Part shown: positions 5,748 through 29,751 of the stretch, piece by piece | Layout of the letters: the number at the start of each line of letters is the position of its first letter | Numbering within the stretch: position 1 is the stretch's first letter | Virus genome (UHGV): UHGV-0197631 | Direction: 5' to 3' (one strand) | Length of the DNA: 43,736 bases | Source of the DNA: a virus | Program-made: the position numbers and the translations under genes | Notes under the pieces: generated by a model | Told to the model about the DNA's origin: nothing | Seen by the model: the letters and a program-made list of their open reading frames with translations, nothing else | Databases searched by the model: none

Positions 5748-6308
5748 TCAGGTAGGAAGGGTTATTTCGGTGTGATGTTCGATATCGCCGTCAGGCCCGT
5801 TACCGGGATCGAGATAATCAACATCAATCGCCAGCGTTCGCAGTTCATCCAGACTGTTCAGGTCATCCTGCTGGCGGGTATCGTCTTCGGTCAGCTCGCT
5901 GATGACCGAAAAATCGAACTGATAAATCAGCTCATGACGATTCAGATCCAGCAGCGTGCCGCCGTCATAGGTAATCGGGTTACCGCACGCCTCCGGGTTC
6001 CAGCCCAGCAGAGCCTTAAAGAGCATCTGCCGGACATCGTCCACCACATCATACGAGGCAAACTGACCGCGCTCATCACGCCCGTTACTCAGTATGACAA
6101 CCACGGAGAAACCCTCTTTCAGCTCCTGCCAGTAGTCGGTCTGGCTTTTGTTTTCTCCCGGAGAATCATCACCCGGTACCACATACGCCGCCGGGAGTCT
6201 CAGCTTTCCGACCTCCGGCAGATTTTTGAACGGCTCCGCGCCTGCCACCCGGTTTTCAAAATACGGACAGCGGGCACGCAGTGCAGCAATAACGGGCGTC
6301 AGTTTCAT
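5748..6308 (-). CDS. phage tail/neck completion protein (Mu gp37-like), function uncertain
   Basis: 186 aa ORF between head-tail joining genes and sheath; assignment by position only. Confidence 0.4.
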   Translation of the reverse strand: MKLTPVIAALRARCPYFENRVAGAEPFKNLPEVGKLRLPAAYVVPGDDSPGENKSQTDYWQELKEGFSVVVILSNGRDERGQFASYDVVDDVRQMLFKALLGWNPEACGNPITYDGGTLLDLNRHELIYQFDFSVISELTEDDTRQQDDLNSLDELRTLAIDVDYLDPGNGPDGDIEHHTEITLPT

Positions 6309-6811
6309 CTGTGTCGTCGCTCCGGCTTCAGTGATTTACGCAATTCCCGCGCCAGAAAATAGCGTGTCCAGCTGCGGTTCTTTTCAAGAGTTTCCACCAT
6401 GAAGTTATTACGTGGAGCCAGTCGCCAGCCGCTGCCACCGGATGCACCACGATGATGGCCGCGACGACGCTTTGCCCCTCGCCTCACGCCATAGAACAAA
6501 AAAGCCGGATAAAAATCACCGGTGATACGGCGGTTTCCCTCTCCATTACGCTGGTTAGGGGCTATACGTGCCATAAAACCAGGGCGATGTTTACTGGCTC
6601 TGGGTACCATGTAACCAATTGAACGAGCCAGGCGTCCGGTCTGATAACCGGGGTTTTCACCCGGTGCCGACCGCGCACGGCGCATCACCAGCCGACGGGC
6701 ATCACGCATATGACGCTGACCAATCGTGACAAACGCCCGCCGGACACGGGCGCGGTTAAAGCGCATCTCCGCGGGCTGCTGAAAATCAACGTGCAAAAAG
6801 GAAGTCGTCAT
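6305..6811 (-). CDS. virion morphogenesis protein (HK97 gp10-like), basic
   Basis: 168 aa, very Arg-rich; 4-nt overlap with the downstream gene; position between head-tail adaptor and tail completion. Confidence 0.4.
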   Translation of the reverse strand: MTTSFLHVDFQQPAEMRFNRARVRRAFVTIGQRHMRDARRLVMRRARSAPGENPGYQTGRLARSIGYMVPRASKHRPGFMARIAPNQRNGEGNRRITGDFYPAFLFYGVRRGAKRRRGHHRGASGGSGWRLAPRNNFMVETLEKNRSWTRYFLARELRKSLKPERRHR

Positions 6812-7768: not shown

Positions 7769-8974
7769 TTACGCCGCTGCAATCTTCAGCAGTTTGATGG
7801 CCTGCGAATCGACCAGCATGCCGCCGGTGCGCTTGGTGGTATAAAAACCGACAAACGGTTTATTGGTGTACGGATCGCGAAGAATGCGGGTACCGATACG
7901 GTCAACGATGGTGTAACCCCGTTTGAAGTTACCAAATGCAATGGCTTTCGCATCCGCGGCAATATCCGGCATCTGCTCGTTTTCAGCGATACCGTAACCC
8001 GCCAGAGAGGATGGCTGCCCCAGTTCCAGCCCAGGACGCCACAGATAGTTACCCTCGGTGTCTTTCAGCAGACGGATGGCAAACAGGCTGTTGTTGTTCA
8101 TCATGAACTTCGCGCCAGTGCGGTGTGCCTTACGCAGCGTGTAAATCAGTTTGATAATGGCGTCTGCGGTCACCGCGGTCGCTTCGCCGGATACAATATG
8201 CTGAAGTTTGCCGAACGCCCGGACCTTGTCGGTTTCATCAGTGGATTCATACGCCAGGAACCCTTTCGGCTTCTTGGTGCCATCGCCTGAGGTAAAGGCA
8301 ATTTCTTCCTGTTCGGCAAATTCGGTTGCCAGCTCGCTGTTGATCCAGGCCTCCACGTTGAAGAAGGCATCGTCCAGCATTTTCTGGGTAGCCTGCGGGT
8401 TGCCGTAAATTTCCCCCATGAGAGGTTCAATCAGCTCCAGTCTGGAGGTGGCAGTCTGGGATCGCGTATCCGTTTCCCCCACCCATCCGGAAGCCGTACC
8501 GCCCAGATTCACCAGTTTTTTGTAGTCGGAACCGCCAACGGTGATCACCGTGGCTTCCTGACGCATCACCACTTCATCTTTCAGCAGGTTAAGAATGTTG
8601 CGATCCAGTTCTTCCGGCACGGCGTAGCCACCGTCTTCATCGGTACCCACCTGCAATGCCTTACGCTCCAGATCGCGCAGACCGTCTTCACGGCCTTTAC
8701 GCAGGAAGCCCACAAACGCCTCTTTATGCTCGGTGGCCAGTTTATTTTGCGCACCACCTGCCGGACGTTTCAGCTCAAGCAGCTCTTTTTCAAGGTCGCT
8801 TTTGAGATTTTCCAGCTCGCTGAGTTTCCCGTTCAGGGTTTCCACCTGCCCGGCAAGCTTGCCTTTTTCCTGCTCAATCGCATCCACGCGCTTGTCGTTC
8901 TTTGCTTTGAAGTCGTCAAACTTCTGCTGCAGCTCCTGCGCGACCTGTTCGACATCTTTAATATCAACCGCCAT
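7769..8974 (-). CDS. major capsid protein, HK97 family, with N-terminal coiled-coil delta domain
   Basis: 401 aa; N-terminal ~100 aa coiled-coil (scaffold-like delta domain) followed by the capsid fold region; directly downstream of prohead protease. Confidence 0.85.
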   Translation of the reverse strand: MAVDIKDVEQVAQELQQKFDDFKAKNDKRVDAIEQEKGKLAGQVETLNGKLSELENLKSDLEKELLELKRPAGGAQNKLATEHKEAFVGFLRKGREDGLRDLERKALQVGTDEDGGYAVPEELDRNILNLLKDEVVMRQEATVITVGGSDYKKLVNLGGTASGWVGETDTRSQTATSRLELIEPLMGEIYGNPQATQKMLDDAFFNVEAWINSELATEFAEQEEIAFTSGDGTKKPKGFLAYESTDETDKVRAFGKLQHIVSGEATAVTADAIIKLIYTLRKAHRTGAKFMMNNNSLFAIRLLKDTEGNYLWRPGLELGQPSSLAGYGIAENEQMPDIAADAKAIAFGNFKRGYTIVDRIGTRILRDPYTNKPFVGFYTTKRTGGMLVDSQAIKLLKIAAA

Positions 8975-8988
8975 CGTATTTCTCCTGA

Positions 8989-9675
8989 TTAGAAGTTCAG
9001 ATTTTTCAGTGCATTCAGTGCAGAGCCCACATCCTCAGCGTCGCGCAGGGACAGTGCGCCATAGCCCCCGGCCATGAATGCTTTGGCCTGGGTACGGGAG
9101 AGTCCGACATCACGCAGGACTCTTTCGATTTTTTTCTGTTCGGGGATTTCCCCGCGGGCCAGTGCGTTCTTGACGTCGCTGATCCGCGCCTCGTCGTTAG
9201 ACGGGAACGTCACCAGGCTGACTTCCCAGAGGTCGATTTCTTTCAGCAGAAAGGCTTCTTTGCTCCGGTCGTATTCCCAGTCTTTCAGGACGTACCCAAT
9301 AGAAAGGCCGGTTAACGAACCGGCCTTCATGTGTGCATGTGCGCGTTTTGCGAGGGGATCATCATCAATAAGCAACCGTCCCCTGACGTAAAGCCCGACA
9401 TCGTCTTCCTTCATTTCGGTGTAAACACCGATGGGTTCATCCATGCGGTGCTGCCAGAGCAGCGCAGGTAACGCTTTTCTGTCACTCCACGCCCGCAGGG
9501 AAGCAGCAAATGCCCCGGACATCACCACATCATCGTGGCTGTCCTTTACACCAAAGACGGAGCCATACCCTTCAAACTCACCGGAGTCACTGACAGATTT
9601 CAGACTCAGCGGTACATCAAGACGTTGTTTCGTCTGCATTGGCGTTATCCTTCTGCTTACCGGCTTTACTGCCAT
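8989..9675 (-). CDS. prohead maturation protease, HK97 gp4 family
   Basis: 228 aa; position between portal and capsid; sequence character of S78 prohead proteases. Confidence 0.8.
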   Translation of the reverse strand: MAVKPVSRRITPMQTKQRLDVPLSLKSVSDSGEFEGYGSVFGVKDSHDDVVMSGAFAASLRAWSDRKALPALLWQHRMDEPIGVYTEMKEDDVGLYVRGRLLIDDDPLAKRAHAHMKAGSLTGLSIGYVLKDWEYDRSKEAFLLKEIDLWEVSLVTFPSNDEARISDVKNALARGEIPEQKKIERVLRDVGLSRTQAKAFMAGGYGALSLRDAEDVGSALNALKNLNF

Positions 9676-10858
9676 CGGAGGGTTTCGTGGTCATGTTCAT
9701 CGGTGTGAGATAGACATCACCACCGGGTCGTGGATTCATATCTTCCAGGTCGCGGCAGTCATTGGGAGAGTAAATTCCCCAGTTGATCCCGGTGGCGTAG
9801 GCTTCAAAACGGGACTTCATATCCCCGCGCAGTAACGCCCCGGCGTTAAATTTGGCGTAATAAACGCCCTGCTTACTTTTTCGTACCAGTCCGGTGTTGA
9901 TCCGCTGTTCGATGCGGGTCAGATACGGCACCAGTGAATAGTTGATAAATCCCAGCCCCAGCTCTTCGATATTGTTGAAGGTGGCGCGATCGGTGTTCTG
10001 CACCATGTGCAACGGCACCCGGAACAGACGACAGATTTCTTCAAGCTGAAACTTGCGGGTTTCCAGGAACTGGCTGTCCTCGGCGTTCAGCGCCATCGAC
10101 TTCCAGTCCAGCCCCATCTCAAGGATCATCGGGCGGTGAGCATTGCCAAGCCCGGTGTGACGCTCCTCAAAATCTTTCTTCAGGCGCTCATAAGCCTGAT
10201 CTGACAGCGTCTGCTCTGTACGCAACACACCCGACGTCACCGCGCCATTGCTGAACAGTCTGGCCCCGTGCTCTTCGGTCGCTGCCGCCAGCGATATTGC
10301 CTCGCGGGCATAGGCGATGGGATTCAGCCCCACCAGTCCGTCCAGCGTCAGCGTGCGCACATGCCAGATATCCTCCTGGCTCAGTACATCCGCGGAGCCA
10401 TCCGGGAATGTGACCTGATAGACCGGTTCCCAGCTACTGTTAAGCTTCGGTACCACACAGCCGGGATCGACGGGCAGCAGTTCAGCCACTTCGCCAAATG
10501 CTTTCACTTTGTAGGCGTAAAAGTTTCCCCTCAGGCACAGACAGGTGACCACCAGCTCCCAGAACTCCTGCGGCGTCATATAGCCATTGGGATGCGTGGA
10601 GATCAGCTTATGCAGACGTTCGCCGGTGGCTCTCTGTTTAAGGCTGCCGTTCAGGTGATACAGATTGCAGGGCAACATCCCGACCGACTCCGCCAGCACC
10701 CTGACACAGGAAAAAACCGCCGTCAGTCGCATGGCCCGCTGGCTGCTGATCTGCTTTCCGGTATAGGTGTCGTAGGACAACCCGATAGCATCCGCCAGCT
10801 CTGCTGGCGTGGTCACCGGTGCGTCACTTTTTCGTTGAAATAATCCCGAAAAGAACAC
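9617..10858 (-). CDS. portal protein, HK97 family
   Basis: 413 aa; downstream of large terminase, overlaps the protease gene start. Confidence 0.8.
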   Translation of the reverse strand: MFFSGLFQRKSDAPVTTPAELADAIGLSYDTYTGKQISSQRAMRLTAVFSCVRVLAESVGMLPCNLYHLNGSLKQRATGERLHKLISTHPNGYMTPQEFWELVVTCLCLRGNFYAYKVKAFGEVAELLPVDPGCVVPKLNSSWEPVYQVTFPDGSADVLSQEDIWHVRTLTLDGLVGLNPIAYAREAISLAAATEEHGARLFSNGAVTSGVLRTEQTLSDQAYERLKKDFEERHTGLGNAHRPMILEMGLDWKSMALNAEDSQFLETRKFQLEEICRLFRVPLHMVQNTDRATFNNIEELGLGFINYSLVPYLTRIEQRINTGLVRKSKQGVYYAKFNAGALLRGDMKSRFEAYATGINWGIYSPNDCRDLEDMNPRPGGDVYLTPMNMTTKPSDGSKAGKQKDNANADETTS

Positions 10859-11040
10859 TATTTACCTCCGCCGACAGACGACTGTGTACGGTCGAGATAT
10901 CGCGCCACCAGCCACGACCAGAACAGGCACAACGCCCCGGCAACAACAAACCCCGCCGGGGGATAAATCAGCCAGGCACCATACGCCAGCAAAAGCGCCC
11001 CCAGCACGCCCACCAGAGGCGCGAGAATCAGCATGATCAT
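10858..11040 (-). CDS. small two-helix membrane protein
   Basis: 60 aa, two hydrophobic segments ([23 protein letters not shown]; [15 protein letters not shown]); sits between terminase and portal. Confidence 0.35.
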
Positions 11041-11051
11041 AATTACCTCAG

Positions 11052-12785
11052 TTAAAGCGAGCGGATCCCATAGGACTCAATGTGGTCAGACAGCGTGTCT
11101 TCTTTCTCGTACAGCATGGCTCTGCCAACCGCCATAATCAGCGCAACTGCACCATCGATTTTGTTTTCCGCCTGCTCTTTGACGGGCTTCACCACATCAT
11201 CGTTACCTGGCATGTTTTTGCCGACCACATTGCCGATACACCAGGTCATGATGGGATTGCCGTCATGATGAAAGCGTCCCGATTCAATCGCTGCTTCCAG
11301 CTCTTTCATCGGATCGGACATATTGGCGAAGTTCTGGACGATAGTGACGGGATTCAGATCTTCATCAGCAAGGTCATGTGACAGCCCGGTCGCCCCGAAG
11401 GGGTCGATGGGTGACTCACTGACCGGGCTGATTTTGTTCGCCGCTTTGGCCTCCTCGAGGATGTAGCGATAATCCACCTCTGCACCATCGGTAACGGTCA
11501 GGACGCCCATTTCCACCCATTTCTGAAAGCGTTCGGCTGTCCGTCTATCTTCATTTTTCTCGACGCTGTACACCGTGTCATACGGTACCCAGAAGCGCGG
11601 GGCCACACTGTAGTAATGCGTTTTACCGTCAATCTCGCGGGTATAAAGTCGCGCCATGCTGTTCATATCCAGCTTACGCGCCAGGTCAAAGGCCAGAATG
11701 CACGGCTGCCCCTCGAACTGCTCAAGGGTCAGTGATTTATCCTCGCAGCTCTGCCAGCTCACCAGGTTGAAATACGCCGAACGCGCCGACACCCAGATAT
11801 TGAGGTGTTTTGTTTTAAAGACGTTTGCCAGACGGGCGTTATTTTTCGCACGCTGCTGCTGACTTAACAAAAATTCGCGATAAACCGACACGCCAATATT
11901 TGGATTGGCTTTTTCCAGCACCTGCGGGTCGGTCCAGTCGTCACCTTCATCAACGGTATAGATGATCCCGAACAGTTCATCGTTAGGCACCGAGCCGTTG
12001 AGCATCTCGATGACTTCCCGCCGCTTGTCGTAGCACGGCCCCTCAATGTTGTACCCGGCGGTGGTGATGGCCCACATCAGTGGCTGACGTCGCGCCCCCA
12101 TCCCGGTAAGCATTGTGGTATAAAGCGCATCGGTGGCATGCTCGTGATATTCATCCACCACCGCACAGTGGGGTGATGAGCCATCACCGGGGTTGCCGAT
12201 CAGCGGTTCAAACCGCGCGCCATCCTCCGGACGGTTCATGTTTGAGGCGTTAACCTCAATCCCGAACGCTTCCGTCAGCATGGGTGTGCGTTTACACATC
12301 AGTCGCGCCGGGCGAAAGACTTCCCACGCCTGTTTCTCTGTCGTGGCACCGGAATACACTTCCGCGCCAAACTCGTTATCACAGGCAAAACAATACAGGG
12401 CAACACCGGCAGAGATTGCTGATTTGCCGTTCTTACGGGGGATTTCGGTGTACACCTCCCGGAAGCGGCGCAACCGGGTGCCTTTATTGACCCAGCCAAA
12501 CGCACAGCAGATCACAAATAGCTGCCACGGCTCCAGCGTGATGGGCATCCGTTTGAATGCCCACTCCCCCTTGGTGTGCGGCAACAGCTGAATAAATTTC
12601 GCGGCCCGTTCAGCCAGGTCCTTGTCGAAGCGGTAACGAAACGACTTACTTTTTTCCGCCATCAGGTCATCAAGATGGCGCTGGCAGGCCTGAATCACAA
12701 ACTGGCAGGCCACAATCTTTCCGCGCACGACATTCCGGGCATACTGATTGGCAGCATTTACGTTGGGGTAAGATTTCCGGCTCAT
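11052..12785 (-). CDS. terminase large subunit
   Basis: 577 aa; ATPase N-terminal region and nuclease C-terminal region character; precedes portal. Confidence 0.85.
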
Positions 12786-12798
12786 GATTCGATGATTT

Positions 12799-13293
12799 TC
12801 AGATTGTCAGAAACGGGTTAGTGGCTTTCTTCTTCCCCGCCAGGCCAATCAGACGCTGGCGGCTGCTGGGGTCGAGTCCGAGCATTGCCCCCGTACTGCT
12901 CATCTCGGACTCCTGTTCTTTTTTGGCGGTCAGCTCCGGATTTTTGACCCTGCCGCCCATTGCACCGGTGATGGTGTTGCCCTGTCTGGCAATATTTTTC
13001 ACGGCACGTCGCCAGAACTCGTAGGCCACGCACCACCGCTCAAGCACCGCGAGGTCAGTCACGCACAACAGGCCCTGACCGCAGAGTTCTTTGGTTGTCA
13101 GTTGCCACATGATCGTGGCGAGAGGGAGATTTTCTTCTGCGAACCACTCCGGTGGCTCAACACCTTTGATGGGCGTAAAAACAGGTTCATCTTTATTCAG
13201 GGCTCGCTTGCCGGGGTTTCCGGCCAGCGCCTTGCGCGCCGTTGGCTTGGGGCGACGCCCGGAACGCCCCGCCGTTCCAGCCATATGCGGCAC
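12799..13293 (-). CDS. terminase small subunit
   Basis: 164 aa, basic N-terminus, directly upstream of terminase large subunit. Confidence 0.75.
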
Positions 13294-13409
13294 TCCTGGT
13301 TAAATTTCATTTTTCGCGGGTATAAAAAAACGATGGGGCGGGCAGTCCGGAAGACGTCAGGTCACAGAGATTTGACCCGCCCCTCCCCTCAGACAGTTGA
13401 GAATTATTA
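13294..13409. other. putative cos / packaging recognition region
   Basis: Intergenic region between HNH endonuclease and terminase small subunit, the conserved cos location in HK97-like phages; contains GC-rich inverted repeat GGGGCGGG...CCCGCCCC. Confidence 0.35.
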
Positions 13410-13760
13410 TCACTTAAGTCGTTCACGGGCCGTCTTCGCCTTATGACACGGCCAGCACAGACTCTGCAGATTACAGTCGGCATCAGTGCCGCCATGCGCT
13501 TTAGGGATGATGTGGTCAACGGTTTTCGCTTCACGCACCACACCGGCACGCAGACATAACTGACATAAACCTTTGTCACGTTTCAGCACACGCGCGCGGA
13601 TAACGTCCCACTTCGAACCGTAGCCGCGCTGATGACGGGATTGTCCTGGCTTGTATTGCTTCCAGCCTTCGCTTTTGTGGCTTTCGCAATAGCCTGACGG
13701 GTCAGTGGTTGTAGAGCTGCAGCCGCGAATACGGCAGGCCTTTGGGATTCGTGGTGGCAT
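13410..13760 (-). CDS. HNH endonuclease (terminase-associated)
   Basis: 116 aa with Cys pairs and H-x-x-H elements (CxxC...DHIIPKAHGGTD...CWPCH); located just upstream of terminase as in HK97-like phages. Confidence 0.8.
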   Translation of the reverse strand: MPPRIPKACRIRGCSSTTTDPSGYCESHKSEGWKQYKPGQSRHQRGYGSKWDVIRARVLKRDKGLCQLCLRAGVVREAKTVDHIIPKAHGGTDADCNLQSLCWPCHKAKTARERLK

Positions 13761-13785
13761 TTATCAATCTCCACTCAATTCCTTT

Positions 13786-14310
13786 CTACTTCGTCATCAT
13801 TTTACTAAGTTCCTGAGGAGTCAATTCCCATGTAATAAACCGAGAAGACTCCAAAACATCATCTTCTCCGAGCAAGTATTTACGTATATTATTCATGAAG
13901 ACCCTATAATCTGGGGCATCATTCTTGTGCGACAGAATTTTAGACAATTCCGTTGCTAGATCAGCTGGTAACCATAAAAAAGCCTCATTTGTTAATTGTC
14001 TTAATCTTTTTCTGTCATATGGATTTGTCATCCATTCAGACATAAGCTCGGCAATTAATGCCGACTTCATTCTTATCTCATGTTGCCTTTTTTGCTTATC
14101 CAGAATAACAGTGTTTGCTGTTTTTATTGTTTCAAGCATAACATCGTATTCATGCTTGACTGCATTCTGCACAGTGCTTTGTAGCCAAGTTCTCCCAATA
14201 AAAAACATTAAAGGGAGTATTACAACCCAAGCGATTACATTTGCTATCCAACCAGCGTCCATATCTATCCTCATGAAAATAAAAATAATTAACACACAAG
14301 CTGTTAGCAT
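13786..14310 (-). CDS. AT-rich moron: membrane-anchored protein of unknown function
   Basis: 174 aa; N-terminal hydrophobic helices; markedly lower GC than flanking phage genes; between lysis cassette and HNH. Confidence 0.5.
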   Translation of the reverse strand: MLTACVLIIFIFMRIDMDAGWIANVIAWVVILPLMFFIGRTWLQSTVQNAVKHEYDVMLETIKTANTVILDKQKRQHEIRMKSALIAELMSEWMTNPYDRKRLRQLTNEAFLWLPADLATELSKILSHKNDAPDYRVFMNNIRKYLLGEDDVLESSRFITWELTPQELSKMMTK

Positions 14311-14321
14311 ATAACATTATT

Positions 14322-14579
14322 TCAATGATTACTTCTTTTGCTTTCTATTTTGCGGATTGCAACTTTATCTTGATTACATTGATTTAATGCTGATAACAAA
14401 TTCACATTCAAATCAAGACTTGCACCATACGTCAGTGGGTCGGGTATAAACGGTACAGGAGTATCAGAAGTCAAGCTGACTGGTAGTGGTGTATTCGGAA
14501 TGCTCACGTAAACTGTTCGCGTACTTCCGCAACCTGTCAGCAGCGGCAGCAGGTACAGGACGGGCAGCACAATCATCAT
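14322..14579 (-). CDS. o-spanin Rz1 (outer-membrane lipoprotein), out of frame within and beyond Rz
   Basis: Begins MMIVLPVLYLLPLLTGC (lipobox LTGC), proline-rich mature part; start at ATG 14579 inside the Rz gene in a different frame, extends past the Rz stop. Confidence 0.65.
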   Translation of the reverse strand: MMIVLPVLYLLPLLTGCGSTRTVYVSIPNTPLPVSLTSDTPVPFIPDPLTYGASLDLNVNLLSALNQCNQDKVAIRKIESKRSNH

Positions 14580-14856
14580 CCGCAACAGCCACTTTGATAT
14601 CTTCCTGGGTTCTCTGTGACTCCAGTGCGATCTGCTGTTTTGCATGCTGGTTAGCCTCCAGAACAGTATTGACGATTTGCATTGATTGCAGGACGTTATT
14701 GGTAATGGCAGTTGCTGATTCAGCATTTCGTACAGCCTCATCAGCACGTTTCTTTTCGTGCTGATATTTGCTGTAGTAGTGGTTAGCAGACCAGATGAAA
14801 GAACCGATGACAATAAAGAAGAATGCAGCGATAACCAGCTTATAGCTCAACTTCAT
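14464..14856 (-). CDS. i-spanin Rz
   Basis: 130 aa, N-terminal TM helix followed by coiled-coil; immediately downstream of endolysin. Confidence 0.75.
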   Translation of the reverse strand: MKLSYKLVIAAFFFIVIGSFIWSANHYYSKYQHEKKRADEAVRNAESATAITNNVLQSMQIVNTVLEANQHAKQQIALESQRTQEDIKVAVADDDCAARPVPAAAADRLRKYANSLREHSEYTTTSQLDF

Positions 14857-15316
14857 TTACCACCCCACCAGCATCTTTAAACATGGAAATCAGGTCACCG
14901 ATTTTATGTTCATACTGACCGTAACCTGCACCAGGTAACGACGCCCAGATATTGCTGCAACGGTCGATTGCCTGACGAATATCGCCACGGTCAATCATCG
15001 GTAAAGCGCCACGCTCTTTAATCTGCTGCAGCGCCACAGCGTCCTGACTTTCTGGCGAAAAATCTTTCAGGCCAAGCTGCTTGCGGTAGGCATCCCACCA
15101 GCGTGAAAGAAGCTGATACCGGCCTGCGGCTGTTGATTTAAGCTTCGGGTTTAGCGTGACAAGTTTGCGAGGGTGATCGGAGTAATCAGTGAAGAGTTCG
15201 CCACCGACAATAACGTCATAACCGTGGTTACGTGTCGGTTGTCGCCCGTTATCCGTTCCTTCTGACCAGGCCACCATATCCAGGAAAGCTTTACGCTGGG
15301 GATTTAGTTCCTGCAT
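14840..15316 (-). CDS. R: endolysin, lambda R-type lytic transglycosylase
   Basis: 158 aa; near-identical over most of its length to my recollection of lambda R (NQRKAFLDM.AWSEGTDNGRQ.TRNHGYDVIVGGELFTDYSDHPRKLVTLNPKLKST.AGRYQLLSRWWDAYRKQLGLKDFSP). Confidence 0.9.
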   Translation of the reverse strand: MQELNPQRKAFLDMVAWSEGTDNGRQPTRNHGYDVIVGGELFTDYSDHPRKLVTLNPKLKSTAAGRYQLLSRWWDAYRKQLGLKDFSPESQDAVALQQIKERGALPMIDRGDIRQAIDRCSNIWASLPGAGYGQYEHKIGDLISMFKDAGGVVNEVEL

Positions 15317-15319
15317 AAA

Positions 15320-15670
15320 TTACTCCTTCGAGCTACCAAATTTGTTACCGATTACTCGCATTGCAGCCCCACGAATAGCATCGACACCGATCAACCCAAC
15401 GCCACCACCAATGGCAACAGAAAGCGATTTAGGCCATCCGACATACTCAAGAGCGGATGCAAAAGTCAGCGTCAGAGCGCCGCAGAGCAAAATCTCGAGC
15501 GTTTTTCGCTTCCAGCCACCACCACCGCCAAAATAGGCAATGCGCAAGCCAGCCATAACGATCGACATAATTACTGCGCCCAGCGGTGTGTCTCCACGCC
15601 ACCAGCTCTGTAACAATTCAAGTAAGTCAGACCAGGAATGAGGATCGTTATGCATTTTCATAATTCCCAC
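15320..15670 (-). CDS. holin (possible dual-start holin/antiholin)
   Basis: 116 aa with hydrophobic helices; N-terminus MGIMKM offers alternative Met starts; directly upstream of endolysin. Confidence 0.65.
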   Translation of the reverse strand: MGIMKMHNDPHSWSDLLELLQSWWRGDTPLGAVIMSIVMAGLRIAYFGGGGGWKRKTLEILLCGALTLTFASALEYVGWPKSLSVAIGGGVGLIGVDAIRGAAMRVIGNKFGSSKE

Positions 15671-15750
15671 CTCCGGTTATCGGAAGTGCAACGAGTGAAG
15701 GGAAAGAAGCTGGTTATAGCGCTGAGTCGCAAAAGATGCGTAGTGCACAA

Positions 15751-15780
15751 AAAAGGCCGCCCACAGGCAGCCTCTTTTTA
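15751..15780. terminator. stem-loop followed by T-run (intrinsic terminator-like)
   Basis: GGCCGCC cacag GCAGCC stem (one mismatch) flanked by A-run and T-run; between the Cys-rich ORF and holin. Confidence 0.35.
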
Positions 15781-15792
15781 TAATTCATTGAG

Positions 15793-16035
15793 TTAACAAC
15801 ATTTAAATGCTGGTGGTATAGAAGGTTTTTCACCAGAACGGCAAGCCGGACACCATGACTGAACGATATGCCTGCCGTCTCCCATATCCCTATAACCAAA
15901 GTCTATTGTTTTATAAAAAACGTGCACTCCGGCATCAGCAGAACATTTTGGGCAAGATTTATATTCAACGCCATCTTGTTCAACTTCTCGTGAATAACTT
16001 AATGACTGCTCACAAACAGAACAACGCTCCACCAT
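15793..16035 (-). CDS. small Cys-rich (zinc-ribbon-like) protein in the Q-holin moron slot
   Basis: 80 aa with CxxC, CPKC, CPAC pairs; located downstream of the tR'-like terminator where lambdoid phages carry morons. Confidence 0.4.
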   Translation of the reverse strand: MVERCSVCEQSLSYSREVEQDGVEYKSCPKCSADAGVHVFYKTIDFGYRDMGDGRHIVQSWCPACRSGEKPSIPPAFKCC

Positions 16036-16190
16036 ATATGCTCTCCTGTTTTTGATAGAGATTTATGGGTAGCAATTCCATTCAAAAGAAACATTGAAGG
16101 GTGTCACTTTTTCAAAATGAGCGTAGCTGGCTGCCAGTTTTTTGTACAACACACTTTAAGGAAGGAGAGCCTTAAAAACACAATTGACAT

Positions 16191-16220
16191 CAATAAAAAA
16201 CCGCTCGGTGGCGGTTTCTT
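16191..16220 (-). terminator. tR'-like intrinsic terminator of the late leader transcript
   Basis: Minus-strand AAACCGC caccga GCGGTTT stem followed by TTTTTTATTG; lies ~100 nt downstream of the Q gene end. Confidence 0.5.
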
Positions 16221-16323
16221 GAAGATTATCAACGGTAGACACACAAAGCCCATCGTTAGGGAAATCCTAACCATATTTTTTGAAAAATGCAAGCATCATG
16301 TCGCTATCTTCGGCGAAAATTAC

Positions 16324-17076
16324 TTATCTCGTCACCTTTCTCAATTGTGCTTCAGCGTAAGATTCCTCCTGCCAGCACTTTGTAACCAGTTTATCAATGA
16401 CATTTGCATATCCTTTGTACCACTGATAATCAGTCAGGTCCGGTACCAGCTTCTGGACATGATTCCGCGCCAGTGTGGTTGGTAAACGGCTAAACCGGTT
16501 TCCATTGCAACGCCCACAAATCTTATAAACAGGCGTGCCATGAAGCCGGGTTCTTTTTTCATCCAGAACAATACCTTTACCCTTACACCCTCTGCACGCT
16601 GTGCTGACTTCTCCCTTACCATGACAATGCTGACATAGTTCCTTCACCCACTCTTCCTTGATAACAGATTCCCCGCTTCTGGAGTGTTTCACCACTTCGC
16701 GCAATACATTATGAAATCCAGTACCAGCACAATGCTCACAGCGAGCCTTACTTGCCGCAGACCTGGAATAATCAGCAAAGGCAAAATTCACAAGGTAAGG
16801 GATGATCTGTAACCGGGTTTCTTCACTCAATTTGTTCAATGTCGGGTTATCCAGTGCCATCGCGTAATTGAGCAGACCTTCAATCGCAAACTGAGGATCC
16901 TGAACACCAACTTTTGCCAGAAATAAGGCAAACCCAAGCGGTGCTTTCGACTGCACCATCCCCTGCGCAGCCATCACATCCGTAATTGTTAAACCACCAG
17001 AGCCTGTCGCCGGTGCGTCATCGCTCAGTTTTGGAGATTTCGGGGAGTAATATTTCGGTAAGGCTTCAAGGTTCAT
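16324..17076 (-). CDS. late-gene antitermination protein Q (Qin QuuQ-like, Cys-rich zinc-binding type)
   Basis: 250 aa from MNLEALPKYYSPKSPKLSDD; multiple CxxC/HCHGKG motifs; GGAGA Shine-Dalgarno 7 nt upstream of ATG 17076; position before lysis genes. Confidence 0.75.
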   Translation of the reverse strand: MNLEALPKYYSPKSPKLSDDAPATGSGGLTITDVMAAQGMVQSKAPLGFALFLAKVGVQDPQFAIEGLLNYAMALDNPTLNKLSEETRLQIIPYLVNFAFADYSRSAASKARCEHCAGTGFHNVLREVVKHSRSGESVIKEEWVKELCQHCHGKGEVSTACRGCKGKGIVLDEKRTRLHGTPVYKICGRCNGNRFSRLPTTLARNHVQKLVPDLTDYQWYKGYANVIDKLVTKCWQEESYAEAQLRKVTR

Positions 17077-17089
17077 GCTCGTTCTCCAC

Positions 17090-18085
17090 TTACGCCAGCA
17101 CGCCAATTGCCAGCGCACGATCGATAAAACGAAATATCAGCTCCAGCTGGGAGCCATACTTCTCTTCAAATGCCACGGTATCCGCATGCAGCTCGTCGTG
17201 ATGCTTTCTGCACAAAGGCAACACAAAGAGGTCATGCGCTTTTGTACCCATTCCCCCCTGACCGTGGCCTATCAGGTGGTGGGGATCATCAGCTGGCTTT
17301 CCACAACATGCACACGGCTGTGTCTTAACCCAGCGCGTGTACTTTTCATTAACCCAGCGGCGACGTTTTGGGCGTAACATAAAAGACTCCGGCGACTCCG
17401 GATCCACTTTCAGCGCCAGCACCTTTTTCGCTTTATCCTGGATAATGCTGGTGGCAGGAACCGAAGGAACAAGGTCACTCTCCCGGGTGACAGACGGCAC
17501 AACAGGCTTCGGTAATCTCAGTGCCTTACGGGCTGCACTTTCCGGTAAGGCATCCGCCAGGTCATTACGAACCAGCCACCAGCACAGTTCCGGCATTGTC
17601 ACAACGTGACTGTCATCAAAACCGAGATCACGGCGCACAACAGATAACACCCAGCGGGCACAGTTATCCGTTGCCATTGATTCCAGCCCTTCCGTGAACT
17701 GATCGCGCAACTGGTTATCGCAGTGCCAGCACAGACGGATTGCGCCCGGAGCGTGCCGCATTGTGGTCATGTTCTCGCTGTGCCAGTCGGAATGAGGCCA
17801 CTGGCAGCCTTTTTCACGAAGTAACCAGCTTTCAAGACATTCCACGCCACCAGCACGACGGATCACTGCCTCATTGCGGAACACGGCCCGAACGGCAGGA
17901 TCATCCGCCAGCGGTTGTGATGCCGCCGGAACGGCACCACTGGCGAAAGATGAATAACGTTCCGGCTCAGGCTCCAGCAGGACACGCCCCTGCATAAACA
18001 GGGGCATCAGCTCTGAACCTGGCCTGAACAATACGATCCCCATACGCGGGGCAATTTCAGGGGTCAGTAGTGCTCTCACGGTCAC
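17090..18085 (-). CDS. DUF968-like prophage protein with C-terminal Cys/His nuclease-like motif
   Basis: 331 aa; C-terminus CACCGKPADDPHHLIGHGQGGMGTKAHD...LCRKHHDELH; adjacent to Q as in Qin-type prophages. Confidence 0.55.
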   Translation of the reverse strand: MTVRALLTPEIAPRMGIVLFRPGSELMPLFMQGRVLLEPEPERYSSFASGAVPAASQPLADDPAVRAVFRNEAVIRRAGGVECLESWLLREKGCQWPHSDWHSENMTTMRHAPGAIRLCWHCDNQLRDQFTEGLESMATDNCARWVLSVVRRDLGFDDSHVVTMPELCWWLVRNDLADALPESAARKALRLPKPVVPSVTRESDLVPSVPATSIIQDKAKKVLALKVDPESPESFMLRPKRRRWVNEKYTRWVKTQPCACCGKPADDPHHLIGHGQGGMGTKAHDLFVLPLCRKHHDELHADTVAFEEKYGSQLELIFRFIDRALAIGVLA

Positions 18086-18086
18086 C

Positions 18087-18929
18087 TCAATGAACGGTAT
18101 CGAGCAGCTTTAACAGCTCAGGGAATCGGGATTCGAAGAAATGCGGCTGCGTCTCGCGCGGATTTGCGGGACTGGTGATGTTCTTGCCGAACATGCAGCC
18201 TTTCGCTGTCAGCGACCAGAATTTTTTGATGTTGTTAATCGCAGTGCGGCTGTATCGTTCACGTTGTTCAACGATCCCCAGCTTCGCCATCTGGTGATAT
18301 GCCTGATTAGCTGTCAGGCGGATACCATACTGCTTCAGCAGTGCACTCAGTGACAGCGTGGGGCGGCTTGAGCCATCAGGCGCGTCAGCAGGAGCATCAA
18401 TGGCATAGCGCGGTGCCAGATTCGGTAAGCCAACAGCCTCCTGGAGTTTCTGACAGGCACCAAGCACTGATGAGTTAGACAGGTTTAACTCCCTGCGCAT
18501 AAAGTCCAGCAGAATCACACCAGCCTGCATCTTGTCAGCAGCCTGTCCGGATAATTTTTCCGGTGCGCTGGTTACCATGTCGAAAGTACGGATCACTTTC
18601 AGATGGAATGACGGGCTGATCCACATTGCATAGGCATACACCAGTTCCTTGCAGACATAAGTTCCCCGTTCATTTCCCCCATGAATCACACTCACCGGGT
18701 CAACACCCAAATTCTGGGTGTTGGTCAATTCATGAACAAGTTCAACAGTTTGTTGGCTGGAAAGAAACTTTCCTGGCTCCTTGGTTCTGGCATTTGCACC
18801 AGATGCTACTGCTGCGCGATGCAGATCGTTCAGGCTGTAACGTCCATAAGCATCACGACGAACTTCAATACCATCAATGACCATCAGATTATTCATACTT
18901 CGTTTCTCCTCTTGATCAGGCGGCTGCAC
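18087..18929 (-). CDS. KilA-N domain protein
   Basis: 280 aa; N-terminal VIDGIEVRRDAYGRYSLNDLHRA... typical of KilA-N DNA-binding domain. Confidence 0.6.
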   Translation of the reverse strand: MQPPDQEEKRSMNNLMVIDGIEVRRDAYGRYSLNDLHRAAVASGANARTKEPGKFLSSQQTVELVHELTNTQNLGVDPVSVIHGGNERGTYVCKELVYAYAMWISPSFHLKVIRTFDMVTSAPEKLSGQAADKMQAGVILLDFMRRELNLSNSSVLGACQKLQEAVGLPNLAPRYAIDAPADAPDGSSRPTLSLSALLKQYGIRLTANQAYHQMAKLGIVEQRERYSRTAINNIKKFWSLTAKGCMFGKNITSPANPRETQPHFFESRFPELLKLLDTVH

Positions 18930-19305
18930 CCGCCGTTTTCTCGTACTTACTGATAGTGATCTCGACCTTCCCTTCCGGGATAACCGGTCCCCACTCCACC
19001 AGCATTCTTTTCACCTGACTGTCGTCTTCCCACACCCCCGCGTGGGTCAGGGCGTCAAACAGCGCCTTGTTATAGTTGTCCAGATCGCGGATCCTGTTAT
19101 CCGGAGGAAACAACACGATCTCCACTGAAGCAGGTGCCGACGTTGGTTTCGGCAGACGACGTAACTGTTCAACTATTGCTGCGCACGCCGCGCTCTGAAA
19201 TTTTCGCCCCGCCGCGCTTATCAGGCTCTTACCTGCAAACGCCCCTTTGTTGGGGTGTCGCCAGTACGTGTTCACGCTGGGCGGGAAAGGCAGGATCAGC
19301 TTCAT
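18916..19305 (-). CDS. rusA: crossover junction endodeoxyribonuclease RusA (Holliday junction resolvase)
   Basis: 129 aa; LPFPPSVNTYWRH... and acidic catalytic residues (DLDNYNKALFDAL) characteristic of RusA. Confidence 0.75.
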   Translation of the reverse strand: MKLILPFPPSVNTYWRHPNKGAFAGKSLISAAGRKFQSAACAAIVEQLRRLPKPTSAPASVEIVLFPPDNRIRDLDNYNKALFDALTHAGVWEDDSQVKRMLVEWGPVIPEGKVEITISKYEKTAGAAA

Positions 19306-19598
19306 ACTTTCAGGCCCCTCTTATGTAACCAGTGGGTTGCACGCAGCCTGGCGTTTTCCTCACCGGCAAGCAGTGAGCGGATAATCCCGACCGCCTCGCT
19401 GTCGTCGTCCTTCACCGCGGTATGAAGCGTGATGCCCCGGGCCACGCCACGCTTTATCGTGATGACGCCTTTTTTCTCCAGTGCGCGAAGATGCTCCACC
19501 GCTGCATTCACTGAACGGTATCCCAGCATGGTTGCCACCTCCTGATTGGTTGGCGGGAAGCCACGTTCTTTCTGATAAGAAATCAGCATATCCAGCAC
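19302..19598 (-). CDS. LexA-N-like winged-helix DNA-binding protein
   Basis: 98 aa; GFPPTNQEVATMLGYRSVNAAVEHLRALEKKGVI resembles the LexA DNA-binding domain; no peptidase domain. Confidence 0.45.
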   Translation of the reverse strand: MLDMLISYQKERGFPPTNQEVATMLGYRSVNAAVEHLRALEKKGVITIKRGVARGITLHTAVKDDDSEAVGIIRSLLAGEENARLRATHWLHKRGLKV

Positions 19599-19624
19599 CT
19601 ACTGCTGGCATTGAGTTAACGTCG

Positions 19625-20278
19625 TCATGCCGCCATCTCCCTGACCAGTTTTTCCGCCTGCTGGCGAACCTGCGCCAGAAAGGCCTCACCACATGCCTCA
19701 AGTTCATCGCGCCCGATATAGCTGATTGCCGATCCCTTCCAGGTCTTATCGAAAACAGCAATAGCACCAGCGAAGAAAGCGCCTGTCGGCACCTGCTTCT
19801 CATCCTTCGGGATAAACCAGACAGGCAGTTCAAAACCAATACGCCCGCGAATAAAAGCAATATGGTCTGCATCTTCCGGCCACCACACTTCGCTGGTGGC
19901 AGCTTTGATCAGGAAAACATAACGCCCGCCCTTATCACGCATGGCACTGGCATGTTTCATGATGTAACGCATGCCGGTGATGTATTGCCCCTCATGCTGA
20001 CTGGCGCGGCTGTATGGGGGATTACCAAAGGCAGCACCTTTAAGCTCCGCAAGACGTTCTGACCAGTCATGCGCCAGCGCGTTGTCTTCCGCCGTGTAAT
20101 ACGCAGCACATTTGGTGTTATCACCGTCAGTGAACAGATCCAGAACAAACGGGCCAAACAGGGTGTTAATTCCCCAGAAAATGTTGTCCGGCGTGCGCCA
20201 CTGATCGCCCACTTCCTTCAGTTCATGGGCTGGTTTGTTCCGCAGTTCCACCAGCGCCTGGCAATATTTATTACTCAT
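19625..20278 (-). CDS. phage N6-adenine DNA methyltransferase (Dam-like, orphan)
   Basis: Contains NPPY-type motif (FGNPPY); start set at MSNKYCQ (ATG 20278), which overlaps the upstream stop as TAATG; no cognate nuclease adjacent. Confidence 0.7.
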   Translation of the reverse strand: MSNKYCQALVELRNKPAHELKEVGDQWRTPDNIFWGINTLFGPFVLDLFTDGDNTKCAAYYTAEDNALAHDWSERLAELKGAAFGNPPYSRASQHEGQYITGMRYIMKHASAMRDKGGRYVFLIKAATSEVWWPEDADHIAFIRGRIGFELPVWFIPKDEKQVPTGAFFAGAIAVFDKTWKGSAISYIGRDELEACGEAFLAQVRQQAEKLVREMAA

Positions 20279-23710: not shown

Positions 23711-23725
23711 TTCTAAGGGCATATA

Positions 23726-24073
23726 ATGGCTAGTGAGCAGGGATTCGAAAAGATTAACATGGATATGTTGGTCTCTTATTTCTCAGAAAAGAATATATAT
23801 CTAAAATGTACACTATGTGGACACGACAGATTGACTGTGCCTCAAGTCAGCGCGAATGTGGGCATGCCATGTACTATGAAACTTGGTAGTTATGTGAATG
23901 TTTTTACTGAAAAAAGCATTTATTCTGATACTGCTAACCAGTATTACTTTTCACTAATATGCAACAATTGTGGAAATGAAATTCATATAAATGCGTTTTC
24001 AGTTTTGAACTGGGTAAATGAAAAGTTCCCAGCAAAAACGGAAGATGAAAAAAATGCCGACGCCGCAAAATAA
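23726..24073 (+). CDS. hypothetical zinc-ribbon-like protein in the rexA-equivalent slot
   Basis: 115 aa; two CxxC pairs (CTLCGH ... CNNCGNE); AT-rich; 16 nt downstream of cI on the same strand. Confidence 0.45.
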   Translation: MASEQGFEKINMDMLVSYFSEKNIYLKCTLCGHDRLTVPQVSANVGMPCTMKLGSYVNVFTEKSIYSDTANQYYFSLICNNCGNEIHINAFSVLNWVNEKFPAKTEDEKNADAAK

Positions 24074-24425: not shown

Positions 24426-24756
24426 TAAGTTTTTGACTATGACCTGCCCTAGTTTTCTTACTATCGAGGCTAAATCACACAATCCATTGAGTAGTAAATT
24501 CCCTACCGTTTTACACTTAGCCTCCAAAAACTCAACAATACTCTCATGATTGACTTCTCCCCACTTGATGATTAACTAGATCACATACTGATCTCAGCCA
24601 CAATGAAACAATCCATCACGTTCTACAACTCAGCTAACTTCACAATATAATTTTTTGATCATAGCCCCCAAAATATTTTACCTGTAAATTCAATGAATTA
24701 ATTTCAAAATGCGTTTTCATGCCCTTAACTTCTACTTTTTGTAGTTGATTTTTGCA

Positions 24757-29737: not shown

Positions 29738-29751
29738 CTTATTGATTTAAA

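What the first reader, a model, noticed from the sequence alone, without database searches (positions are those of the whole stretch)
13786..14310. AT-rich moron between packaging and lysis modules encoding a membrane-anchored protein
The 174-aa gene has strikingly lower GC than both the HNH/terminase and lysis genes around it and begins with hydrophobic helices followed by a soluble domain. Morons at this position in lambdoid prophages frequently encode exclusion, virulence or anti-defence functions expressed from the lysogen.
Basis: inference. Interest (0 to 1): 0.5.

Follow-up and report, generated by a model that had tools for sequence, protein, structure and literature searches.

The report
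Mobile membrane-anchored prophage cargo gene
An AT-rich extra gene between the lysis and DNA-packaging genes of an E. coli prophage encodes a small, uncharacterised inner-membrane-tethered protein whose relatives also travel as single-gene integron cassettes, making it a plausible but untested phage-exclusion factor.

Summary
The real gene is most likely 158 aa (13786-14262, minus strand, starting at M17 of the 174-aa ORF). It has one N-terminal transmembrane helix, not several. Its GC is 37%, against 47-59% in the flanking genes.

It is true cargo. Only 1 of 5,426 complete E. coli genomes has it at this slot. About 2,900 share the flanks but carry other cargo (Iss/Bor, DUF6979, a GrlR-like gene, antisense hypotheticals) or nothing.

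The family has about 350 clusters and no Pfam, PHROG, PADLOC or PDB relative. In many mosaic lambdoid prophages it sits between the spanin and terminase genes, co-oriented with the late operon. About half of those copies carry their own intrinsic terminator. In Vibrio it is a single-gene integron cassette bounded by attC sites.

Predicted topology is N-out/C-in. The conserved part is a near-neutral cytoplasmic helical bundle with no catalytic motif.

The copy in this window has no terminator and no convincing promoter, so it is probably read with the late operon. Best guess (about 0.4): an autonomous accessory gene that excludes or aborts infecting phages at the inner membrane. The function is untested.

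The parts
13786..14262 (-). Most likely coding sequence, 158 aa plus stop: a single-pass membrane protein with a cytoplasmic helical domain
   Evidence: SD GAGGA lies 5 nt upstream of the ATG at 14262. All homologues start at this position. PGAP aa in RMDEC465. Purifying selection.
14263..14310 (-). In-frame 5' extension of the maximal 174-aa ORF. Probably an untranslated leader; contains the SD at 14268-14272.
   Evidence: No SD before the ATG at 14310. No homologue has the extension.
14191..14250 (-). Codons for the N-terminal transmembrane anchor (residues about 5-24)
   Evidence: Kyte-Doolittle 2.2 over 19 aa. 146 of 156 family members have one such segment. K+R is 0.35 before it and 3.34 after it, predicting N-out/C-in. 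Sequence is poorly conserved, 1.3 bits.
13930..14082 (-). Codons for the most conserved core (residues 61-111: ...IRMKSALIAELMSEW...LRQLTNEAFLWLPADLATELSKIL...)
   Evidence: 2.5 bits per column over 79 diverse members. Invariant or near-invariant: W77, L90, L96-W97-L98-P99, L110, R127. Forms a helical bundle with pLDDT 91.
13762..14323 (.). Cargo segment: the stretch that is replaced by other cargo, or absent, in related E. coli prophages
   Evidence: Homology to alternative-cargo prophages ends at 13761 and resumes at 14324. In the empty-site relative L050, the Rz1 stop is followed by 26 nt and then the HNH ATG. The cargo is 99.5% identical to RMDEC465, while the flanks are 97%, 97% and 89%.
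14316..14324 (-). Only promoter-like feature upstream: an extended -10-like TGaAATAAT overlapping the Rz1 stop codon (weak, not above chance)
   Evidence: Relaxed scan: one site, against a shuffle expectation of 3.8 +/- 2.6 hits. The stricter scan found none on this strand.
14322..14856 (-). Upstream context: Rz (14464-14856) with embedded Rz1/LysC (14322-14579), the end of the lysis cassette
   Evidence: phrog_214 Rz-like spanin at 6e-47 and DUF2570. lysC annotation in the syntenic RMDEC465.
13410..13760 (-). Downstream context: HNH endonuclease that opens the packaging module (then P27-family TerS and TerL)
   Evidence: PF01844 at 5e-15 and phrog_144 at 3e-44.

Best explanation
This is a horizontally mobile, single-gene accessory cargo of moron type, lodged in the known cargo hotspot between the spanin genes and the packaging genes of a lambdoid (HNH/P27-terminase) prophage. 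It encodes a 158-aa bitopic inner-membrane protein. The protein has a short acidic N-terminus outside, one generic TM anchor, a stalk helix of variable length, and a conserved, near-neutral helical-bundle domain in the cytoplasm. Shown here: the cargo status, the family's mobility across platforms, the predicted architecture, and purifying selection. Inferred: the cytoplasmic bundle is a protein-binding module held at the inner face of the membrane. There it interferes with an infecting phage, either by blocking genome entry or an early membrane-associated step (superinfection exclusion in the manner of HK97 gp15 or the integron protein Deva), or by sensing a phage product and aborting infection. 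That benefits whichever element carries it. In this particular phage the gene has lost the leader and terminator seen in its relatives. It is probably transcribed with the Q-dependent late operon, so any expression in the lysogen would have to come from a weak or unrecognised promoter.
For: Cargo status: the gene is present in 1 of 5,426 complete E. coli genomes at this slot. About 2,937 genomes share the flanks with other cargo or none. The junctions are sharp at 13761 and 14324. Foreign composition: GC is 0.37, and the homologue is below its locus GC in every locus examined, for example 0.42 against 0.65 in Pseudomonas. Autonomy: Vibrio homologues are single-gene integron cassettes bounded by attC sites, in at least three different array contexts, including the rplT-intI superintegron. 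Others lie in IS/relaxase regions, TA-rich islets, or beside Hhe or an AAA_15/21 ATPase. Moron signature in relatives: 13 of 31 loci, and 4 of 6 close homologues, have a canonical and conserved intrinsic terminator directly after the stop codon. HK97 gp15 has the same layout. No conserved partner gene was seen; upstream neighbours are lysis or Q genes and downstream neighbours are terminases of several unrelated families. Architecture: a single TM segment, with 98% of members carrying more K+R after it than before it. AF2 pLDDT is 83 for the full protein and 91 for the domain. The TM sequence is not conserved, the core is, pI is about 6.5, there is no Cys and no catalytic motif. Precedent: this slot hosts the Tai defence locus in phi80 (PMC11364771). 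At least one third of tested unknown integron cassettes confer phage resistance, about a third of those proteins contain TM helices, and one (Deva) appears to block genome injection (bioRxiv 10.1101/2024.07.02.601719).
Against: There is no functional evidence for any member. There are no hits to PADLOC models, for this protein or for 79 diverse members. In this window the gene is co-oriented with the late operon and packed tightly into it, with no terminator and no above-chance promoter. In phi80 the co-oriented gene at this slot is the late-expressed counter-defence gene, while the antisense gene is the defence gene. All prophage copies are co-oriented with late genes. Promoter-like sites were found in only 6 of 31 loci. 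The association with defence genes in non-phage contexts is anecdotal. Integron cassettes also encode many non-defence functions.
Confidence: 0.4

Rival explanations
1. A late-expressed phage accessory protein that acts for the phage during its own lytic cycle. It could be a counter-defence or self-immunity factor (like phi80 AtiEcA), or a membrane factor that blocks superinfection or tunes events between lysis and packaging. It would be transcribed only from pR' under Q antitermination.
For: The gene is co-oriented and tightly packed in the late operon, with no promoter or terminator of its own in this window. All prophage homologues are co-oriented with the late genes and lie just after the spanins. 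In phi80 the co-oriented gene at this slot is the Q-dependent counter-defence gene. In Erwinia the neighbouring gene has an Acb2/Tad1-hairpin anti-defence fold.
Against: The same family occurs as promoterless single-gene integron cassettes and in non-phage islets, where no phage late programme exists. About half of the prophage copies carry an intrinsic terminator, which only matters for non-antiterminated transcription. The gene is dispensable: 2,936 of 2,937 related E. coli prophage-bearing genomes lack it, and empty sites exist.
Confidence: 0.25
2. A host-fitness or lysogenic-conversion factor unrelated to phages, such as an envelope-stress, colonisation or virulence modulator. It would be carried as cargo like Bor/Iss at the same slot.
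For: Iss/Bor and a GrlR-family regulator occupy the same slot in other E. coli prophages. The family spreads widely on integrons, plasmids and islands in environmental and host-associated Proteobacteria and Bacteroidota. It has the architecture of a membrane-tethered binding module.
Against: There is no signal peptide, lipobox or surface exposure; the conserved domain is predicted to be cytoplasmic. The taxonomic and ecological range is too broad for a host-specific virulence trait. There is no link to any metabolic or regulatory operon.
Confidence: 0.15
3. A lysis-cassette component: an extra spanin-, holin- or antiholin-like membrane protein that modulates lysis timing.
For: It lies immediately after Rz/Rz1. 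Its N-terminal TM segment plus long helix superficially resembles an i-spanin. A few members give very weak PHROG hits to Rz-like spanins or holins. The closest homologues follow the same Rz1 3' end.
Against: The predicted topology is N-out/C-in, opposite to that expected of an i-spanin such as Rz or an antiholin such as T4 RI (their N-in/C-out topology is from general knowledge; prediction). A complete holin-endolysin-Rz/Rz1 set is already present. Nearly all phages with the same lysis cassette lack the gene. It occurs in integrons and non-phage loci. The PHROG hits involve 1-2 of 79 members, at noise level.
Confidence: 0.05

Closest known systems
HK97 gp15 (moron-encoded superinfection exclusion protein)
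   Same: A small protein with an acidic N-terminus followed directly by one TM helix. It is encoded by an extra gene co-oriented inside a late operon, with a terminator immediately downstream. That is the layout of most homologues of this gene. It is annotated 'moron product'. From general knowledge (Cumby et al. 2012, cited), it blocks phage DNA entry at the inner membrane.
   Different: There is no sequence relationship: hhalign probability is 6%, and only the TM residues align. gp15 is 62 aa with no conserved cytoplasmic bundle, and it sits in the tail gene cluster rather than at the lysis-packaging junction.
phi80 taiEcA/atiEcA locus (tail assembly inhibition defence and its counter-defence)
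   Same: It occupies the same genomic slot, between the Rz/Rz1 genes and the packaging end of a lambdoid phage. The authors describe it as a moron/immunity locus 'upstream of the packaging module' (PMC11364771).
   Different: There is no homology to either protein: hhalign 0.3% and 0.1%. Tai is a 26-kDa protein encoded antisense to the late operon and expressed in the lysogen. Ati is small and co-oriented. The gene here is a single co-oriented gene encoding a membrane protein, with no partner.
Lambda Bor / E. coli Iss lipoprotein
   Same: It is cargo at the same Rz-to-packaging slot; iss occupies this very slot in related HNH/P27-terminase E. coli prophages. Like this gene, it is an envelope-associated conversion gene.
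   Different: Bor/Iss is an outer-membrane lipoprotein with a lipobox signal and is typically antisense with its own promoter (general knowledge). The protein here has no signal peptide or lipobox, its conserved domain is predicted to be cytoplasmic, and it is unrelated in sequence.
Integron-cassette phage-resistance proteins with TM helices (BRiCs such as Deva; V. vulnificus LDILCD_22380)
   Same: Relatives of this gene are bona fide single-gene integron cassettes in Vibrio. A third of the validated cassette defence proteins contain TM helices. Deva appears to block genome injection. A V. vulnificus cassette encoding a 'small transmembrane protein' resists T4.
   Different: No sequence link could be made. 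Those sequences are not in the accessible text or supplements, and PADLOC gives no hit. No member of this family has been tested.
P22 SieA and SieB
   Same: They are prophage-encoded proteins that exclude superinfecting phages. SieA is an inner-membrane protein of similar size (164 aa) encoded in a moron region.
   Different: There is no homology: hhalign 0.2% and 0.5%. They sit at different genomic positions and are antisense with annotated promoters of their own.

Membership tests
Moron (Hendrix/Juhala sense: an extra, independently transcribed gene inserted in a phage operon) | Present in this phage but absent or replaced at the same site in close relatives | tested here: met
   1 of 5,426 E. 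coli genomes has it. About 2,937 share the flanks with other cargo or none. The junctions are at 13761 and 14324. An empty site exists in L050.
Moron (Hendrix/Juhala sense: an extra, independently transcribed gene inserted in a phage operon) | Base composition distinct from the surrounding operon | tested here: met
   GC is 0.373 against 0.47-0.59 in the flanks, in the lowest 4.9% of windows.
Moron (Hendrix/Juhala sense: an extra, independently transcribed gene inserted in a phage operon) | Factor-independent terminator immediately downstream | tested here: not met
   There is none in the 25 nt before HNH or within HNH's 5' end. It is present and conserved in 4 of 6 close homologues and in 13 of 31 loci.
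Moron (Hendrix/Juhala sense: an extra, independently transcribed gene inserted in a phage operon) | Own promoter upstream | tested here: inconclusive
   The standard scan found none. The relaxed scan found one extended -10-like TGaAATAAT at 14316-14324, not above the shuffle expectation. 6 of 31 homologue loci have a consensus-like site.
Moron (Hendrix/Juhala sense: an extra, independently transcribed gene inserted in a phage operon) | Expressed from the repressed prophage | not testable with these tools
   This needs RNA-seq, 5'-RACE or reporter fusions in the lysogen.
Integron gene cassette (applies to homologues, not to this copy) | A single ORF bounded by attC recombination sites within an array next to intI | tested here: met
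   In V. vulnificus L044, an attC ends at 5987, the gene is 6001-6426, and the next attC starts at 6423; the array follows rplT and intI. In V. europaeus L004, 126-nt VCR-type repeats recur every 0.8-1.3 kb and the first starts at the stop codon. The window copy has no attC.
Spanin, holin or antiholin lysis proteins | Topology and genetic role of a lysis component: type II N-in/C-out for an i-spanin, and universally present with its lysis cassette | tested here: not met
   The positive-inside rule gives N-out/C-in in 98% of members. A canonical S, R and Rz/Rz1 set is already present. The gene is absent from nearly all phages with this cassette.
Known anti-phage defence families (PADLOC-DB v2.0) | Significant match to a defence-protein HMM | tested here: not met
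   There are 0 hits for the protein at E<=1. Over 79 diverse members the best recurrence is BrxA in 4 of 79, at 6e-5, which is not consistent.
HK97 gp15, P22 SieA, P22 SieB, phi80 TaiEcA, phi80 AtiEcA | Detectable sequence or profile homology | tested here: not met
   hhalign probabilities are 6%, 0.2%, 0.5%, 0.3% and 0.1%.
Pfam DUF2489 | Match to the Pfam model above the gathering score | tested here: inconclusive
   UniRef labels one distant member (P0231) 'DUF2489 domain-containing'. The precomputed Pfam column is empty for it. DUF2489 was not among the 25 families shown for the 79 members scanned. No literature mentions DUF2489.

The most novel reading that the evidence does not exclude
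The gene founds a previously unrecognised, widespread family (about 350 clusters at 50% identity, from Enterobacterales to Vibrio, Burkholderia, Pseudomonas and Bacteroidota) of single-gene anti-phage exclusion factors. It would be an inner-membrane-tethered cytoplasmic helical bundle that blocks phage genome entry or triggers abortive infection, shared between prophage late-operon moron slots and integron cassettes. It might be identical in kind to the uncharacterised 'small transmembrane protein' cassette of V. vulnificus reported to resist T4.
Probability: 0.3. Interest if true: 0.6.

Novelty: new member of a known kind. Interest (0 to 1): 0.42.

Why it matters
If the family does confer phage exclusion, it would add a compact single-gene system of about 0.5 kb to the defence repertoire. 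It would show that the same cargo is exchanged between prophage moron hotspots and integron cassette arrays, two reservoirs that are usually studied separately. The family is absent from Pfam, PHROGs and PADLOC, so annotation pipelines cannot see it. The confident structural model (pLDDT 91) and clean domain architecture make it easy to test. If instead it is a late phage function, the contrast between terminator-bearing copies and this terminator-less, operon-fused copy would illustrate how a moron becomes absorbed into a late operon.

Tried and rejected
1. Direct annotation gave nothing. Pfam, PHROGs, PADLOC and NCBIfam on the protein returned only one spurious sub-threshold NCBIfam hit. tblastn against 50,697 GenBank phages found no match. 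A PDB profile search found no hit at E<=10.
2. Bulk scans of 79 diverse members at permissive thresholds showed only noise: Bac_rhamnosid6H in 7 of 79, BrxA in 4 of 79, spanin or holin PHROGs in 1-2 of 79.
4. The longer family members (204-316 aa) were scanned for informative fused domains; none was found.
5. The search for related loci with the diverse alignment A2 failed because no block was conserved enough. It worked with A1.
6. A conserved partner gene was sought in more than 40 loci; none was found.
7. Defence-island enrichment among non-phage neighbours rests on anecdotes only: Hhe, a partial pVip-like radical SAM, a Schlafen/AlbA protein, an AAA_15/21 ATPase.
8. Literature searches for accessions, for the signature motif, for DUF2489, and for the sequence of V. 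vulnificus cassette LDILCD_22380 found nothing usable.
9. The alternative E. coli cargo (111-aa and 189-aa antisense proteins) has no PADLOC or phage-database match.
10. A HEPN-like Rx4-6H motif was looked for by eye around the conserved R127 and found absent.

Full report
**Observation.** The minus strand carries an ORF at 13786..14310 (174 codons). It lies between the lysis cassette and the packaging module. The lysis cassette is a lambda-family holin (15320-15670), a GH24 lysozyme (14840-15316), Rz (14464-14856) and the embedded Rz1/LysC (14322-14579). The packaging module is HNH (13410-13760), a P27-family small terminase (12799-13293) and the large terminase (11052-12785). A Q antiterminator (16324-17118) lies upstream on the same strand. 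The GC dip is real. Gene GC is 0.373 (GC3 0.358), against HNH 0.556, TerS 0.594, TerL 0.544, Rz 0.468 and lysozyme 0.505. Only 4.9% of same-size windows in the whole 43.7 kb are this AT-rich.

**Gene model.** The first ATG (14310) has no ribosome-binding site. The third ATG (14262, M17) is preceded by GAGGA with a 5-nt spacer. All 36 aligned homologues start at the position of M17. PGAP annotates 158 aa in the only E. coli complete genome that carries the gene. I therefore take 13786-14262 as the CDS. With this start there is one N-terminal hydrophobic helix, not several. The gene is under strong purifying selection: against the Erwinia copy, pN is 0.14 while pS is 0.75 and saturated.

**It is cargo in a hotspot.** A 2.1-kb query spanning the locus matches 2,937 of 5,426 complete E. 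coli genomes, but only one (RMDEC465) contains the gene. Homology to the others stops at 13761, the HNH start codon, and resumes at 14324, the Rz1 stop. Across relatives the slot holds two antisense hypotheticals, a single hypothetical, DUF6979, the serum-survival lipoprotein Iss (the Bor homologue), a GrlR-family regulator, or nothing. In the empty-site relative, the Rz1 stop is followed by 26 nt and then the HNH ATG. The cargo is 99.5% identical between the window and RMDEC465, whereas the flanks are 97%, 97% and 89% identical. In phi80, the literature places the Tai defence / Ati counter-defence pair in the equivalent moron locus 'upstream of the packaging module' (PMC11364771).

**The family.** The protein has no Pfam, PHROG, PADLOC or meaningful NCBIfam match. 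It has no tblastn hit in 50,697 GenBank phage records and no PDB sequence relative. Homologues do exist. There are 37 clusters at E<=1e-3 in the word-indexed search, covering E. coli, Erwinia, Serratia, Hafnia, Citrobacter, Pantoea and Yersinia. An exhaustive profile search found 352 representative clusters, nearly all of 130-190 aa. A second search seeded with the Vibrio member reached Aeromonas, Burkholderia, Janthinobacterium, Thiomicrospira, Metallibacterium and Sulfurovum. Species-representative genomes added Providencia, Cedecea, Pseudomonas, Bacteroidota and alphaproteobacterial MAGs. Scans of 79 diverse members against Pfam, PHROGs and PADLOC at permissive thresholds gave no consistent signal. 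Longer members have no recognisable extra domains.

**Context in phages.** In every enterobacterial locus inspected, the homologue lies after the lysis genes and before the terminase genes, on the same strand. This holds although the holin, endolysin, spanin and terminase families differ between loci. The loci are Pantoea plasmid prophage L003, Erwinia L006, Hafnia L007/8, Serratia L009, Pantoea L010-12, Yersinia L013/14 and Citrobacter L051. A bulk Pfam scan of neighbours in 23 further genome and IMG/VR loci shows the same polarity. Upstream are Phage_lysozyme, Phage_lysis (Rz), holins and Q antiterminators. Downstream are TerL, Terminase_2/4/6, HNH and Nu1. Neighbours of at least 100 aa are co-oriented 51:8 upstream and 42:12 downstream. 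No partner gene is conserved.

**Context outside phages.** In V. vulnificus the homologue is a single-gene cassette in the chromosomal superintegron (rplT, then intI, then the array). An attC ends 14 nt before its start codon and the next attC begins at its stop codon. It also occurs in at least two other array contexts. In V. europaeus it is followed by the first of a series of 126-nt VCR-type repeats and lies just downstream of the anti-phage gene Hhe. Other copies sit between IS elements on a conjugative Vibrio plasmid and beside an AAA_15/21 ATPase in Aeromonas. Others lie in an IS/TrwC region of Burkholderia and among ParE, MazE and YhcG-type small genes in Thiomicrospira. Still others are next to PIN, RadC, Schlafen/AlbA or radical-SAM genes. 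In every locus the gene's GC is below that of its surroundings, for example 0.42 against 0.65 in Pseudomonas oryzihabitans. The family is therefore a self-contained unit that moves between very different mobile platforms. That argues strongly against a role tied to a particular lysis or packaging machine.

**Transcription signals.** In this window the gene starts 59 nt after the Rz1 stop and ends 25 nt before the HNH start. The standard scan finds no sigma-70-like promoter or terminator on the coding strand. A relaxed scan finds one extended -10-like TGaAATAAT overlapping the Rz1 stop codon, which is no more than shuffles give. By contrast, 13 of 31 homologue loci have a textbook intrinsic terminator within about 90 nt of the stop. 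Four of the six closest homologues share essentially the same terminator (CCGCCnnCGGGCGG followed by a T-run) and a leader of about 80 nt with conserved blocks. A terminator inside a Q-antiterminated operon only affects non-antiterminated polymerases. It is the classic moron mark and is also annotated after HK97 gene 15. The copy in this window looks like a moron whose leader was shortened and whose terminator was lost, leaving it fused into the late operon. From sequence alone it should be transcribed late. Whether it is also expressed in the lysogen cannot be decided here.

**Mechanism (inference).** The family combines several traits. It is single-gene and autonomous. It is carried by prophages, integrons, plasmids and islands. 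It is compositionally foreign. It sits in a slot known to host immunity genes. Its product is anchored at the cytoplasmic face of the inner membrane. The best fit is a factor that protects the carrier cell from other phages. It could block genome entry or an early membrane-associated step, as HK97 gp15 does and as proposed for the integron protein Deva. Or it could sense a phage protein and abort infection. The integron literature gives a relevant prior. At least one third of tested cassettes of unknown function confer phage resistance, and about a third of those proteins have TM helices (bioRxiv 10.1101/2024.07.02.601719). A V. vulnificus cassette encoding a 'small transmembrane protein' resists T4 (bioRxiv 10.64898/2026.03.17.712381), but I could not establish whether that protein belongs to this family. 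I put this explanation at about 0.4.

**Rivals.** The main rival (0.25) is a late-expressed phage function such as counter-defence. It is favoured by the universal co-orientation with late genes, by the phi80 precedent that the co-oriented gene at this slot is the counter-defence gene, and by an adjacent Acb2/Tad1-fold gene in Erwinia. It is disfavoured by the integron and non-phage copies and by the terminators. A non-phage host-fitness role (0.15) and a lysis-accessory role (0.05) fit less well. For the lysis role, the predicted topology is opposite to that of an i-spanin or antiholin, a complete lysis set is already present, and almost all phages sharing this lysis cassette lack the gene.

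**Comparison with known systems.** Direct profile comparisons show no homology to HK97 gp15 (6%, TM residues only), P22 SieA (0.2%), P22 SieB (0.5%), phi80 TaiEcA (0.3%) or AtiEcA (0.1%). By architecture and layout the gene works like a gp15-type moron, but it is not a member of any described family. As a moron in the strict sense, this copy meets the insertion and composition criteria, fails the terminator criterion, and is inconclusive for a promoter. Many of its relatives meet the terminator criterion.

**Verdict.** The finding is real and the gene model is refined. The 'moron with a membrane-anchored product' reading is partly supported. Function remains unproven. This is a new, unannotated member of a familiar kind of element: prophage or MGE accessory cargo. 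It has an unusually informative distribution, occupying both prophage moron slots and integron cassettes, which makes it a reasonable candidate for a phage-challenge experiment. Interest is moderate (0.42).

Noticed in passing
window 15671-16323 (ORF 15793-16035, minus strand): A second AT-rich patch lies between Q and the holin. It holds an 80-aa ORF with four CxxC-type cysteine pairs (phrog_7682, unknown function; GC 0.416, GC3 0.26). In the syntenic E. coli prophages L001 and L002 this position holds a DNA methyltransferase instead, so this looks like another cargo-swap site.
   Followed up: partly
L006 6627-6863 (Erwinia billingiae prophage): The gene immediately upstream of the homologue hits PF24729 Acb2_Tad1_hairpin, the fold of anti-CBASS/anti-Thoeris sponges. 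It lies between Rz1 and the homologue, in the late region.
   Followed up: no
L004 71-6414 (Vibrio europaeus pVEu): The 5.7-kb anti-phage gene Hhe ends 170 nt before the homologue, and no recognisable VCR/attC lies between them, although attC repeats follow every later cassette. Hhe plus the homologue may form one composite cassette, or this may be the edge of the array.
   Followed up: partly
window 13762-14323 slot, in E. coli relatives H42 and H43: In avian and bovine E. coli prophages with the same HNH/P27-terminase flanks, this slot carries iss (increased serum survival, the Bor homologue). Other relatives carry DUF6979 or a GrlR-family regulator there.
   Followed up: no
window 14857-15316: The lysozyme gene is only 88.9% identical to RMDEC465, while Rz/Rz1 and HNH are about 97% and the cargo is 99.5%. 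This marks a mosaic recombination boundary inside the lysis cassette.
   Followed up: no
window 23300-24500, 29550-33650 and 36200-38900: These are further low-GC islands (477-nt windows at or below 0.40 GC). Contiguous E. coli homology to the right half of the window ends at about 29.8 kb, just past the integrase (28574-29737). The last 14 kb may therefore be a different island or an unusual integration site.
   Followed up: no
L052 4860-5498 (Logan SRR27593167 contig): A homologue with its leader and terminator is preceded by a remnant of the Rz1 3' end, but the lysis genes are gone and integrase-side genes abut it. This looks like a degraded prophage that kept the cargo gene.
   Followed up: no
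L046 4190-6426 (Aeromonas veronii): A 556-aa AAA_21/AAA_15 ATPase, a domain pair common in defence ATPases (general knowledge), lies 140 nt upstream of the homologue on the same strand. It could be a two-gene unit in that lineage.
   Followed up: no
window 13925-14314 (plus strand): A 129-aa antisense ORF lies entirely within the gene. It is most likely a by-product of the AT-rich composition. It has no support from homologues.
   Followed up: no
L025 (IMGVR_UViG_3300045988_164313): A 34.6-kb IMG/VR viral contig is 100% identical to window 7789-20262. The same phage, with this cargo, has therefore been sampled in a metagenome.
   Followed up: no
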